From: a virus
Taxonomy: Duplodnaviria; Heunggongvirae; Uroviricota; Caudoviricetes
Direction: 5' to 3' (one strand)
Virus record (IMG/VR): IMGVR_UViG_2874933748_000005
DNA: 48,295 nt
Positions 39,601-42,329 of this stretch are shown in pieces (the first letter of the stretch is position 1; the number at the start of each line of letters is the position of its first letter). A program made the position numbers.

Positions 39601-42329
39601 GTAAGCATTGCCCGGCATCCAGCAATGGCTGAATCTGCTGGCCGATGGCCGCGAAGTTACCGCGATGGAGTTTGATGCCGTCTACTGGCAGAGTCATACG
39701 GCCTCCCTAACGGAAACCGCAGAATGCAGAAAATCGCAGGTGCATTTCTGCATCTGTGACAAGGTGATGAGTTCAGATTGTGGTCGCATTTAAGTCCCCT
39801 TAAATGCGCAGAAGTCACCGGAGTTGTTCAGGCTCCGATGAGAGGATTATGGCGGATTGATTACGATAAATCAAAACTATCTTGAAGCCAAAACAGTGAT
39901 CTTCGCTTTAAAAACCTTGTATACTTTCACCTAATCACAGCCAGAACTATGGATCTAACCAATGACCAACAAAGAAAACAAAGATAAATATATTAACAAG
40001 TTCAAGAAAGAGCTTTCAAAATATATACAACCAACTGCTGGAGTGGACATTCAATTATTTAACTCTAAGGATGGTGGTGGTGTAATTAAAGCCACTTTGA
40101 ATAGAAGTGGAAAAAGAAAATCATCTATTGCTGGTAATTTTACTAAATTAGGTGAGGCAATTACCTCGAGTGGGCAGAGGGTTTTTGGTGGTGATCTATC
40201 AAATGTGAATTTTTACGGAACAAATACGATTTTTGATGGAGATACAATATTTTTAATTAAATCACCTGATTCAGAGGAGTGGTCATCACAAAAAGCTTCC
40301 AAAGACGTAGAGGGCATCGTATTTGGAGGGAAAAAATGATTAACATTACTACTAAGGATGCACTCAAGTCAGTGGTGAAGTAAGAGATCTAGTAATTCTT
40401 CTTGAAACTGATGGAAAAACGGTGTCTGATTATTTGCAGCCAATCCCTCCCAAAAAAGATACACACTGGAGCATGATTTTCATTCCGGTAGCAATTTATA
40501 TACTACTTAATCTTGTATACATTATTGCTCACCCATTATTTCCTGAAAAATATCTAAAAACATCAACATCTATATTTCTATTCATTTCCTTCATATTAAG
40601 TGCAATAGTAGCATATTTTGTTTTCCATAAGCATAAATCTGCCACTCTATCCATATGCAGCTTAGTGTTCTTAGTGTTAATTGTAGGTGCTAACGTAGGG
40701 TTTATCAGTTACAGCGACCTAACACAAAAAGCGACGCAAAAATTAGATAGTTTGTCTAAATAATTATGTTGCCATGCGAAGTATGCATGGCTGCATGTCT
40801 GCCTTAAATATTATTCTTTATTATCTTCTTTACCACTTCGGTGATGCTGCCAACTTACTGATTTAGTGTATGATGGTGTTTTTGAGGTGCTCCAGTGGCT
40901 TCTGTTTCTATCAGCTGTCCCTCCTGTTCAGCTACTGACGGGGTGGTGCGTAACGGCAAAAGCACTGCCGGACATCAGCGCTATCTCTGCTCTCACTGCC
41001 GTAAAACATGGCAACTGCAGTTCACTTACACCGCTTCTCAACCCGGTACGCACCAGAAAATCATTGATATTGTCAGCGCCAGTGATATAAGACGGTAATT
41101 CGCCATTTGGATTGTCCGCTCCACCCAACATGTTGTTTCCTTAAGGTTCTCACACCAGAAAGGACATCAACATGCTGAGCAGAGAGGACTTTTACATGAT
41201 AAAGCAAATGCACCAGCAGGGCGCGTACATCGTCGATATTGCGACTCAGATTGGTTGCTCTGAACGGACGGTCAGACGCTACCTCAAATACCCTGAACCG
41301 CCAGCCAGAAAGACCCGCCACAAAATGGTTAAGCTGAAACCGTTTATGGATTACATCGACATGCGCCTGGCAGAGAATGTCTGGAATAGCGAGGTTATCT
41401 TCGCGGAGATTAAGGCAATGGGTTATACGGGCGGACGTTCCATGCTGCGTTACTACATCCAGCCCAAACGTAAAATGCGTCCGTCAAAAAGAACAGTTCG
41501 CTTCGAAACTCAGCCTGGATACCAGCTCCAGCATGACTGGGGCGAAGTTGAGGTGGAGGTTGCCGGGCAACGGTGCAAAGTTAACTTTGCGGTTAATACG
41601 CTGGGGTTCTCCCGCAGCTTCCATGTCTTCGCCGCACCAAAACAGGATGCTGAGCATACCTACGAATCACTGGTTCGCGCCTTCCGCTACTTCGGTGGTT
41701 GTGTGAAAACGGTGCTGGTTGATAACCAGAAGGCTGCGGTGCTGAAGAATAACAACGGAAAGTCGTGTTCAACTCCGATTCCTGTTGCTGGCTGACCACT
41801 ATAACTTCCTGCCACGGGCATGCCGTCCACGCAGGGCCAGAACAAAAGGTAAGGTTGAGCGGATGGTGAAATACCTCAAGGAGAACTTCTTCGTCCGGTA
41901 CCGCAGGTTCGACAGCTTCACTCATGTCAATCAACAACTGGAGCAATGGATAGCCGATGTGGCTGACAAACGGGAGCTTCGCCAGTTCAAAGAAACGCCG
42001 GAACAGCGCTTCGCGCTGGAGCAGGAACATCTGCAGCCGTTACCGGATACAGACTTCGATACCAGTTACTTCGATATCCGCCATGTGTCCTGGGACAGCT
42101 ATATCGAGGTTGGTGGTAATCGTTACAGCGTTCCCGAAGCGCTGTGTGGTCAGCCGGTATCGATACGAATATCGCTGGATGACGAGTTGCGGATCTACAG
42201 TAATGAGAAACTGGTGGCCTCACATCGCCTCTGTTCAGCATCGTCTGGCTGGCAGACAGTGCCGGAGCATCACGCCCCGCTCTGGCAGCAGGTCAGTCAG
42301 GTGGAACATCGACCACTGAGTGCCTATGA

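What the first reader, a model, noticed from the sequence alone, without database searches (positions are those of the whole stretch)
39962..40763. Orphan AT-rich two-gene cassette where the prophage early region should be
Upstream of ybcN a lambdoid phage should carry replication (O/P), cro/cI and N. Instead there is a ~33% GC segment with two co-oriented genes on the opposite strand: a 125-aa soluble protein (Lys-rich N-terminus, Gly/Thr-rich middle) and a 113-aa protein with three predicted TM helices, followed by IS1. I recognise neither. A soluble protein paired with a small membrane protein at a prophage junction is a common layout for toxin-immunity, abortive-infection or superinfection-exclusion modules, so this is the window's best candidate for an uncharacterised accessory function.
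Basis: inference. Interest (0 to 1): 0.6.

Follow-up and report, generated by a model that had tools for sequence, protein, structure and literature searches.

The report
Decayed two-gene prophage cargo module
This AT-rich stretch is a broken copy of a small mobile operon of unknown function, pairing a cytoplasmic protein with a three-helix membrane protein; the operon travels as cargo on prophages, small plasmids and genomic islands in several bacterial phyla and most likely acts as a membrane-acting defence or toxin-like module.

Summary

**What is there**
- The segment is 33.8% GC against 51.1% for the window.
- Gene A (39962-40339, 125 aa, soluble) is intact.
- The "113-aa" ORF is the tail of a 142-aa gene B. 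B starts at 40336 (ATGA overlap with A) and has lost one G after 40359. Read from its true start it stops after 15 codons and loses its most conserved part.

**Context**
- The cassette does not replace the early region. In intact relatives it sits between replication gene P and ybcN. K-12 DLP12 carries ybcM-ybcL-ybcK-emrE in the same slot.
- Here IS1, with a nested IS21-family element, cuts P nine codons before its stop. Everything beyond P is gone.

**Conservation**
- A and B are always adjacent, and dN/dS is 0.08-0.13.
- A profile of A finds 111 cluster representatives. Eight of nine distant genomic contexts examined carry a B-like gene immediately downstream. These include a Col-type plasmid, integrase elements and an Acinetobacter locus beside KAP-NTPase and SNIPE genes.
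- One relative fuses the A domain to an HNH nuclease.

**Function**
- There are no credible Pfam, NCBIfam, PADLOC, PDB or fold matches, and no homology to RexAB or GhoST.
- Best reading, by inference only: A regulates a membrane effector B, as in abortive infection or a toxin-antitoxin pair. The copy in this window is inactive.

The parts
39877..39961 (+). Left edge of the cassette and its putative promoter and leader. The -10-like box TATACT lies at 39920-39925, 36 nt before the A start codon.
   Evidence: Homology to K-12-type DLP12 (ybcN plus about 180 nt upstream) ends at query position about 635, which is window about 39876. A TATACT / TATGAT / TATAAT box is kept at the same place in otherwise diverged upstream regions of L003, L008, L031 and L033. 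The consensus scan did not list it, because its -35 is poor. Promoter function is inferred.
39962..40339 (+). Gene A: intact 125-aa soluble, cytoplasmic protein. The amino-acid sequence is identical to the gene annotated WP_000182282.1 in strain A7. It belongs to phrog_18061.
   Evidence: ORF. Annotated in relatives. No TM segment or signal peptide, maximum Kyte-Doolittle score 0.43. dN/dS 0.08-0.11. PHROG hit E 9e-85, function unknown. 111 family representatives. Conserved positions are Y10, G39, F84, G86, T87, K100, W107 and D115.
40336..40763 (+). Gene B, a frameshifted pseudogene in this window. The intact form is 142 aa (WP_000608370.1, phrog_16940): a cytoplasmic N-terminal mini-domain of about 36-44 aa followed by three TM helices. 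One G is missing directly after 40359 (codon 9).
   Evidence: Alignment with E. coli A7. Intact translation. The window frame from ATG 40336 stops after 15 codons. The N-terminal 36 residues are the most conserved part of B (dN 0.06-0.09 against 0.16-0.28 for the rest). AF2 model pLDDT 72 with three long helices. Hydropathy.
40422..40763 (+). It equals residues 30-142 of B read from an internal GTG and lacks the conserved N-terminal mini-domain.
   Evidence: Whether it is translated is unknown.
40765..40797 (+). Stable hairpin just after the B stop codon, a possible terminator or mRNA-end structure facing the end of P.
   Evidence: MFE -16.6 kcal/mol, z -3.2 against shuffles. No T-run follows, and the terminator scan did not list it.
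40804..40805 (.). Site of a 31-bp deletion relative to all relatives examined, including the sister contig L022.
40811..40840 (-). Remnant of replication gene P: the last 9 codons (RSGKEDNKE) plus the stop codon, truncated by IS1.
40840..43739 (+). IS1 (inverted repeats at 40840-40862 and 43717-43739), interrupted by an IS21-family element at about 41067-43202. istA is split into ORFs of 207 and 185 aa; istB is intact. This is the right boundary of the prophage remnant.
39242..39697 (-). ybcN (151 aa), the first gene of the conserved ybcN-ninE-ybcO-rusA-ylcG-quuD block that flanks the cargo slot.

Best explanation
The locus is a horizontally mobile two-gene operon carried as antisense cargo (a 'moron') in the variable slot between replication gene P and ybcN/ninB of lambdoid prophages.

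**The two products**
- Gene A encodes a 125-aa cytoplasmic protein with no detectable homologue in Pfam, NCBIfam or PDB.
- Gene B is translationally coupled to A through an ATGA overlap. It encodes a 142-aa inner-membrane protein with a small, highly conserved cytoplasmic N-terminal mini-domain and three TM helices.

**Proposed mechanism (inferred, not shown)**
- A binds the cytoplasmic N-terminal mini-domain of B and controls it.
- B is the effector that compromises the membrane when the complex is triggered.
- The pair would therefore act as an abortive-infection or toxin-like module that benefits the mobile element carrying it. This is analogous to RexA/RexB, without being a member of that family.

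**State in this window**
The module is a decaying remnant. B has lost one base after codon 8 and with it the conserved N-terminal domain. IS1::IS21 has truncated P and removed the rest of the prophage's early region.

**Shown versus inferred**
- Shown: anatomy, frameshift, pair conservation, purifying selection, cargo contexts and the absence of known homologues.
- Inferred: the promoter, the N-in topology, the A-B interaction, the effector role of B and any anti-phage function.
For: **Anatomy and decay**
- ORFs and the GC drop.
- The 1-bp deletion against intact alleles.
- The same allele and the same IS1::IS21 junction in an independent contig.
- The P remnant cut by IS1.

**Real genes**
- dN/dS is 0.08-0.13 with saturated dS for both genes.
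- Nearly all full-length homologues keep 125 aa for A and 142 aa for B.

**Obligate pair**
- A and B are adjacent in all enterobacterial loci.
- Eight of nine distant genomic contexts have a B-like gene immediately downstream. It carries an N-terminal 'VEGTPEEI+D...DYL'-type motif, three TM helices and a basic loop between TM2 and TM3.

**Cargo behaviour**
- Present in 46 of 5426 complete E. coli genomes, against 2778 that carry the ybcN block.
- K-12 holds ybcM, ybcL, ybcK and emrE in the same slot.
- Found on a Col(Ye4449)-type mobilizable plasmid contig between rep and mobC.
- Found next to integrases, next to PIN and DUF4160/DUF2442 genes, and next to KAP-NTPase and SNIPE/T5orf172 genes in Acinetobacter.

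**Modularity**
One relative fuses the A domain to an HNH nuclease in place of a separate B. It was seen in two or more sequencing runs.

**Which partner is dispensable**
B has been inactivated at least twice independently with A left intact: the frameshift here and in L022, and a nonsense codon at position 73 in L030. A alone is therefore not lethal.

**Independent expression**
A -10-like box is conserved across diverged upstream regions, and a hairpin follows B.
Against: - There is no experimental or homology-based link to defence or toxicity.
- No PADLOC v2.0 model hits either protein or their relatives, apart from the HNH part of the one fusion.
- At least one family member (P0083) stands alone without a B-like neighbour.
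- In strain CV839-06 an IS1 disrupts A while B stays intact. That would be unexpected if B were a constitutively toxic effector. However, the insertion probably also abolishes B expression.
- The neighbourhood evidence for defence is anecdotal: a handful of loci, not an enrichment statistic.
Confidence: 0.35

Rival explanations
1. Addiction-type toxin-antitoxin pair. B is a small membrane toxin and A a labile proteic antitoxin. The module stabilises plasmids, prophages and islands by post-segregational killing and does not sense phage.
For: - The upstream gene overlaps the downstream gene by 4 bp (ATGA), the classic antitoxin-then-toxin layout.
- It occurs on a small mobilizable plasmid contig directly after rep and next to other TA-like genes, PIN and DUF4160/DUF2442.
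- Loss of B with A retained is seen repeatedly, as expected if B is the toxin.
Against: - A has no recognisable DNA-binding or antitoxin domain.
- There is no homology to GhoS/GhoT or to any TA model in NCBIfam or PADLOC.
- A natural allele with A disrupted and B intact exists.
- The fusion of the A domain to an HNH nuclease fits a sensor or adaptor better than an antitoxin.
Confidence: 0.2
2. Non-lethal superinfection exclusion. The membrane protein B, helped by A, blocks DNA entry or another envelope step of incoming phages or plasmids, like SieA or T4 Imm/Sp, without killing the cell.
For: - It is prophage cargo, apparently with its own promoter and transcribed opposite to the lytic operons.
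- It encodes a small inner-membrane protein.
Against: - It is spread across plasmids, integrative elements and chromosomal islets in Bacteroidota, Alpha- and Gammaproteobacteria. That is broader than expected for a mechanism tuned to particular phage injection machineries.
- The obligatory cytoplasmic partner and the HNH fusion point to an intracellular event.
- No homology to known exclusion proteins was found in PHROGs or Pfam.
Confidence: 0.1
3. A host-physiology cargo unrelated to conflict, for example a small membrane stress, transport or signalling accessory with a cytoplasmic partner, carried by mobile elements as a fitness factor.
For: - The same slot in K-12 DLP12 carries non-defence cargo: emrE, ybcL and ybcM.
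- No defence or toxin homology was found.
- Some family members sit in ordinary chromosomal neighbourhoods.
Against: - The distribution is very patchy (0.85% of E. coli genomes), and inactivation is frequent.
- It associates with mobile elements and defence or TA-like neighbours.
- There is no transporter or enzyme signature. Weak TM-only Pfam hits are below cut-off and inconsistent between members.
Confidence: 0.3
4. Chance ORFs in AT-rich junk DNA, with no real genes.
For: AT-rich DNA produces long ORFs easily, and no family annotation exists.
Against: - dN/dS is 0.08-0.13 at saturated dS.
- Nearly all full-length homologues keep the same lengths, down to 63-68% identity.
- Profile homologues down to about 20-30% identity keep the same two-gene architecture across phyla.
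Confidence: 0.01

Closest known systems
Lambda RexA/RexB and the RexAB-type prophage systems (Sbash gp30/gp31, CarolAnn gp44/gp43, Butters gp30/gp31; PMC7542560, PMC6426596)
   Same: A prophage-encoded two-gene unit with a cytoplasmic protein followed by a small polytopic membrane protein of about 140 aa. In those systems synteny of the pair is conserved, the genes are expressed from the lysogen, and the membrane partner is thought to be an ion channel opened by the activated cytoplasmic partner (PMC7542560, read).
   Different: - There is no sequence relationship. hhalign probability is 0.3-0.4% against RexA and RexB.
- A is 125 aa with no DUF4747, whereas RexA is 279 aa.
- B has three TM helices plus a cytoplasmic N-terminal mini-domain, not four TM helices.
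- The location is the P-ybcN slot, not the immunity region.
- Function here is untested.
Type V GhoS/GhoT and membrane-toxin TA pairs in general
   Same: A soluble protein gene comes first, a small membrane protein gene second, and both are co-transcribed.
   Different: - No homology: hhalign probability is 0.5% or less.
- GhoT is 57 aa with two TM helices.
- GhoS is an RNase, and A shows no RNase signature.
Lambdoid 'morons' in the P/ren-ninB slot (lambda ren; DLP12 ybcM-ybcL-ybcK-emrE)
   Same: Same genomic slot, deviating GC, present or absent between otherwise homologous prophages, and apparently its own transcription signals.
   Different: Different genes, on the opposite strand to the early-right operon. 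Lambda ren is co-oriented with that operon.
PHROG families phrog_18061 and phrog_16940
   Same: Full-length matches: E 9e-85 for A and E 2e-96 for B.
   Different: Both families are of unknown function, so membership names the proteins but explains nothing.

Membership tests
RexAB-type abortive infection | Cytoplasmic component homologous to RexA (DUF4747, about 280 aa) | tested here: not met
   No Pfam hit for A or for 86 relatives. hhalign of the A family against lambda RexA gives probability 0.3%. A is 125 aa.
RexAB-type abortive infection | Membrane component with four TM helices homologous to RexB | tested here: not met
   Three hydrophobic segments or helices. hhalign against RexB gives probability 0.4%.
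RexAB-type abortive infection | Phage-triggered membrane depolarisation and growth arrest of the lysogen | not testable with these tools
   Requires infection assays with the intact pair.
Type V TA GhoS/GhoT | Homology to the GhoS antitoxin and the GhoT toxin | tested here: not met
   hhalign probabilities are 0.2% and 0.5%.
Type II-like toxin-antitoxin operon (generic) | Upstream antitoxin gene overlapping the downstream toxin gene | tested here: met
   ATGA overlap of the A stop and B start in the enterobacterial loci. Overlaps or gaps of 10 nt or less occur in distant loci.
Type II-like toxin-antitoxin operon (generic) | Antitoxin with a DNA-binding domain (HTH, RHH or AbrB) or a known antitoxin fold | tested here: not met
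   No such Pfam or NCBIfam domain in A or its relatives. The low-confidence model shows an alpha-beta-beta-alpha-beta-beta-alpha layout.
Type II-like toxin-antitoxin operon (generic) | Toxicity of the downstream product, neutralised by the upstream product | not testable with these tools
   The only indirect evidence is from natural alleles: B is lost with A intact, and A is IS1-disrupted with B intact.
Catalogued anti-phage defence systems (PADLOC-DB v2.0.0) | HMM match of either protein to a known or candidate defence protein | tested here: not met
   No family matches A or B at E up to 1. Across 86 A relatives and 8 B relatives there are only single, inconsistent hits, and the strongest are nuclease models consistent with the HNH fusion.
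Phage holins (class I, three TM helices) | Holin family match and a position in the lysis cassette | tested here: not met
   No holin family in Pfam or PHROGs. In relatives the lysis genes essD, rrrD and rzpD lie several kb away on the other strand.
Lambdoid prophage moron (independent cargo unit) | Present or absent between homologous prophages, deviating composition, own transcription signals | tested here: met
   - 46 genomes carry it, against 2778 with the ybcN block. Homology to K-12 DLP12 stops at about 39876.
- GC is 33.8% against 51.1%.
- There is a conserved -10-like box and a hairpin after B. Activity of the signals has not been shown.
phrog_18061 / phrog_16940 | Full-length HMM match | tested here: met
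   E 9.3e-85 over 1-125 of 125, and E 2.3e-96 over 1-142 of 142. Both are of unknown function.

The most novel reading that the evidence does not exclude
The A-B pair defines a previously undescribed, phylogenetically wide family of two-component conflict systems found in Enterobacteriaceae, Acinetobacter, Mesorhizobium and Bacteroidota, on prophages, plasmids and islands. In this reading a small cytoplasmic sensor or adaptor domain with no detectable homologue controls interchangeable effectors. The usual effector is a three-TM membrane protein, docked through its conserved N-terminal mini-domain, and occasionally it is a fused HNH nuclease. The system would act by abortive infection.
Probability: 0.3. 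Interest if true: 0.65.

Novelty: new variant of a known kind. Interest (0 to 1): 0.42.

Why it matters
**If the intact pair is a regulated membrane-effector system**
- It would add a compact, roughly 0.9-kb two-gene family with no detectable homologues to the catalogue of mobile defence or toxin modules.
- The conserved partner-docking mini-domain and the natural effector swap (three-TM protein or HNH nuclease) would make its sensing logic experimentally tractable.
- It would also mark the P-ybcN/ninB junction of lambdoid prophages as a cargo slot worth mining.

**For this particular window**
The practical message is more modest. The cassette is a pseudogenised leftover in an IS-eroded DLP12-like prophage. 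It should be annotated as gene A plus a frameshifted gene B, not as two intact genes.

Tried and rejected
**Family and sequence searches**
- Pfam, NCBIfam and PADLOC scans of both proteins gave no credible match. PHROGs gave only unknown-function families.
- Pfam and PADLOC scans of 86 A relatives and 8 B relatives gave no consistent hit.
- A profile search of PDB sequences gave nothing credible.

**Structure**
- AF2 of A with the shallow 9-sequence alignment gave pLDDT 58.5.
- The afdb50 library was unavailable.

**Collection searches**
- blastn against phage GenBank records and tblastn of A and of its 42%-identical relative against PLSDB found no match. The plasmid-borne form was seen only on a 4.8-kb metagenome contig whose backbone matches Col(Ye4449) plasmids.
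- The single-protein genome scan returned only a spurious Terriglobia hit that overlaps a large gene on the opposite strand.

**Other tests**
- hhalign against RexA/RexB and GhoS/GhoT was negative.
- Rfam found nothing.
- Literature searches by accession, PHROG id and topic found no paper on these proteins.
- I first thought A-B occupied the same plasmid slot as a RelE/NadS TA pair. The annotation shows RelE/NadS lies elsewhere, upstream of rep, so that argument was dropped.
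Full report
**1. Observation**

The window has two co-oriented + strand ORFs at 39962-40339 (125 aa) and 40422-40763 (113 aa, GTG start). They run opposite to the ybcN-ninE-ybcO-rusA-quuD block on the - strand. GC over 39962-40763 is 33.8% against 51.1% for the window, which is in the lowest 0.5% of 802-nt windows. The first product has no hydrophobic segment and the second has three. IS1 begins at 40840. The physical description is therefore correct.

**2. First correction: the second gene is a frameshifted pseudogene**

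Megablast against 5426 complete E. coli genomes finds the segment at 99.5-99.7% identity in 46 of them. There it is annotated as two hypothetical proteins of 125 aa (WP_000182282.1) and 142 aa (WP_000608370.1).

Alignment with strain A7 shows that the 142-aa gene starts at the ATG equivalent to window 40336. This ATG overlaps the TGA of the first gene (ATGA). The window lacks one G directly after 40359.

From the authentic start the window reads MINITTKDALKSVVK and then stops.

Of 17 IMG/VR contigs that cover the gene:
- 15 have the intact 142-aa form.
- One (L022) has the same deletion, is 99.97% identical over 3.8 kb, and has the same IS1::IS21 junction. The frameshift is therefore probably a lineage trait and not a sequencing error.
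- One (L030) has an independent nonsense codon at position 73.

The lost N-terminal segment of about 36 residues is the most conserved part of the protein. Its dN is 0.06-0.09, against 0.16-0.28 for the TM part.

**3. Second correction: the cassette does not replace the early region**

In intact relatives the order is int ... exo-bet-gam-kil, repressor/cro, ydaT-like gene, O, P, then the A-B cassette on the opposite strand, then ybcN-ninE-ybcO-rusA-ylcG-quuD. This is the position of ren in lambda.

K-12-type DLP12 is homologous at about 78% through ybcN and about 180 nt upstream, up to window about 39876. Beyond that point K-12 carries ybcM, ybcL, ybcK, ylcJ and emrE. The site is therefore a variable cargo slot.

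In the window, the last nine codons of P (RSGKEDNKE plus stop) survive at 40811-40840 and are cut by IS1. This IS1 (40840-43739) carries a nested IS21-family element at about 41067-43202. On its far side lies a LacY/CscB-type permease. The early region was lost through IS1-linked deletion or rearrangement.

No complete E. coli genome in the collection has this exact junction. A partial Shigella sonnei protein is 100% identical to A, which hints at a Shigella-like, IS-rich host. This was not established.

**4. The genes are real and form an obligate pair**

- Close homologues occur only in Enterobacteriaceae (Escherichia, Shigella, Enterobacter, Klebsiella). Identity goes down to 63-68%, and nearly all full-length homologues keep 125 and 142 aa.
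- In six further prophage loci the two genes are adjacent and overlapping. They are always antisense between the replication/nin-left genes and DUF1367(YbcN)/NinB-NinE, while the surrounding modules (replication type, Q type, lysis and packaging genes) are shuffled.
- Pairwise dN/dS is 0.08-0.13 for both genes, with saturated dS.

**5. A wider family**

An exhaustive HMM search with the A profile found 111 cluster representatives at E below 1e-3, almost all 120-135 aa. Nearly invariant positions are Y10, G39, F84, G86, T87, K100, W107 and D115.

Contexts were retrievable for ten distant members:

| Outcome | Loci |
|---|---|
| B-like gene immediately downstream (eight contexts) | L009, L010 (metagenomes); L011 (4.8-kb contig with rep-A-B-mobC-relaxase and a Col(Ye4449)/MOBP backbone); L012/L013 (Chryseobacterium element with integrase, SRAP and a BstA-like gene); L014 (Mesorhizobium chromosome); L038/L039; L042 (Acinetobacter, beside KAP-NTPase, DUF4236 and SNIPE/T5orf172); L043 (integrase plus rolling-circle Rep element) |
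| No B partner | P0083 |
| A domain fused to an HNH nuclease, contig too short to show neighbours | P0104, seen in two or more sequencing runs |

The B-like gene is 122-143 aa. It has a conserved N-terminal motif of the type V-E-G-T-P-E-E-I-K/R-D-F...G...D-Y/F-L/F, then three TM helices and a basic loop between TM2 and TM3.

**6. What the proteins look like**

*Protein A*
- Soluble, lysine-rich at both ends, with no signal peptide.
- The AF2 model is of low confidence (pLDDT 58.5, pTM 0.61) and shows an alpha-beta-beta-alpha-beta-beta-alpha layout.

*Protein B*
- The positive loop between TM2 and TM3 (HKHK or KYK) and the lysines before TM1 suggest an N-in topology. That would place the conserved mini-domain in the cytoplasm with A. 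This is an inference from the positive-inside rule.

*Database status*
- No Pfam, NCBIfam or PADLOC family matches credibly.
- PHROGs places them in phrog_18061 and phrog_16940, both of unknown function.
- No paper mentions the accessions or the PHROG ids.

**7. Expression signals**

A -10-like hexamer (TATACT in the window at 39920-39925, TATGAT in L003, TATAAT in L008) is kept about 35 nt upstream of the A start codon, in upstream regions that are otherwise highly diverged. A stable hairpin follows the B stop codon at 40765-40797, with dG -16.6 and z -3.2. The simple promoter and terminator scan listed neither, and activity is untested. Rfam finds no RNA family.

**8. Mechanism**

The data show several things:
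- The unit is translationally coupled and co-inherited, and its two products probably meet at the cytoplasmic face of the membrane.
- It is carried as cargo by unrelated mobile elements.
- Its distribution is patchy, at 0.85% of E. coli genomes.
- It is inactivated repeatedly.
- In one case the A domain is attached to a nuclease in place of a separate B.

Together these are the hallmarks of conflict modules, either defence or toxin-antitoxin.

Natural alleles with B destroyed and A intact occur at least twice independently, so A is not a toxin that needs B. The one allele with A disrupted and B intact (IS1 in CV839-06) probably also silences B.

I therefore favour a model in which B is a membrane effector held or gated by A through B's N-terminal mini-domain. 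The model most likely works as an abortive-infection system (confidence about 0.35), and alternatively as an addiction TA pair (about 0.2). A non-lethal exclusion function (about 0.1) or an unrelated physiological cargo (about 0.3) cannot be excluded.

None of these steps is shown by the data here. The model is analogous to RexA/RexB and the mycobacteriophage gp30/gp31 systems (PMC7542560). Membership in that family fails on every testable criterion, and so does membership in GhoS/GhoT.

**9. Verdict**

The finding is a real but mis-delimited feature. It is a pseudogenised copy of an uncharacterised, widely mobile two-gene module, sitting in a known cargo slot of an IS-eroded DLP12-like prophage.

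- The positional argument, that the cassette stands in place of the early region, is wrong.
- The family has no detectable homologue, while the design resembles known soluble-plus-membrane two-gene systems. I rate it a new variant of a known kind.
- Interest is moderate at 0.42. It is limited by the absence of any functional evidence and by the dead copy in this window. It is raised by the breadth of the family, the conserved docking mini-domain and the effector swap.

Noticed in passing
window 40840-43739: The IS1 next to the cassette is itself interrupted by an IS21-family element at about 41067-43202 (inverted repeats ATATTGTCAGCGCCA / TGGCGTTGACAATAT). Its istA is split into two ORFs of 207 and 185 aa, while istB (266 aa) is intact.
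   Followed up: partly
window 40811-40840 (-) and 43873-45120 (+): Only the last 9 codons of replication gene P remain, cut by IS1. On the far side of IS1 lies a LacY/CscB-type sugar permease, followed by torI-region sequence. The prophage remnant has therefore been joined to an unrelated chromosomal region.
   Followed up: partly
window about 40804/40805: A 31-bp deletion (TCCATTTAAAATGGGCTAAGACCTATAACCC in relatives) lies between B and the P remnant. It is absent even from the otherwise near-identical sister contig L022.
   Followed up: partly
L046 (E. coli K-12 DLP12) 4953-9393; window about 39876: The slot holding the cassette is occupied in K-12 by ylcH-like, ybcM, ybcL, ybcK, ylcJ and emrE genes and a ren fragment. 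Homology with the window stops about 45 nt before the cassette's -10 box, which marks a cargo hotspot.
   Followed up: partly
L008 5665-7348: In an enterobacterial prophage on an NCBI assembly contig, a pore-forming colicin-like gene (377 aa, weak Pfam hit) and a colicin-immunity-like gene (174 aa, weak Pfam hit) lie immediately beside the A-B cassette. A DndB-family gene lies on the other side.
   Followed up: no
L015 (K. pneumoniae plasmid NZ_CP055165) 1600-2326: In the rep-mobC slot where contig L011 carries A-B, this Col(Ye4449) plasmid carries a different overlapping pair. It consists of an 89-aa zinc-ribbon-like protein and a 154-aa protein with an apparent hydrophobic (membrane-type) stretch, so the soluble-plus-membrane design recurs with unrelated sequences.
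   Followed up: no
L044/L045 246-1589 (protein P0104): A 447-aa protein fuses the A-family domain (residues 7-119) to an HNH endonuclease motif (191-231) and an uncharacterised C-terminal region. The contigs are too short to show neighbours.
   Followed up: partly
L002 (E. coli CV839-06) 9163-10742: In this strain an IS1 is inserted in gene A, leaving a 49-aa stub, while gene B is intact. This is a third, independent way in which the module has been disrupted.
   Followed up: partly
window about 4600-5500 and 6000-7200: These are the only other stretches of the window with GC of 36% or less. They coincide with an AraC-family regulator, an IS1 copy and the tail-fibre assembly area, according to annotated E. 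coli relatives.
   Followed up: partly
L006 13685-14446; L012 12100-12366: BstA-type (KilA-N or Bro-N plus BstA_C) prophage defence genes occur in two of the elements that carry the A-B pair, although not adjacent to it.
   Followed up: no
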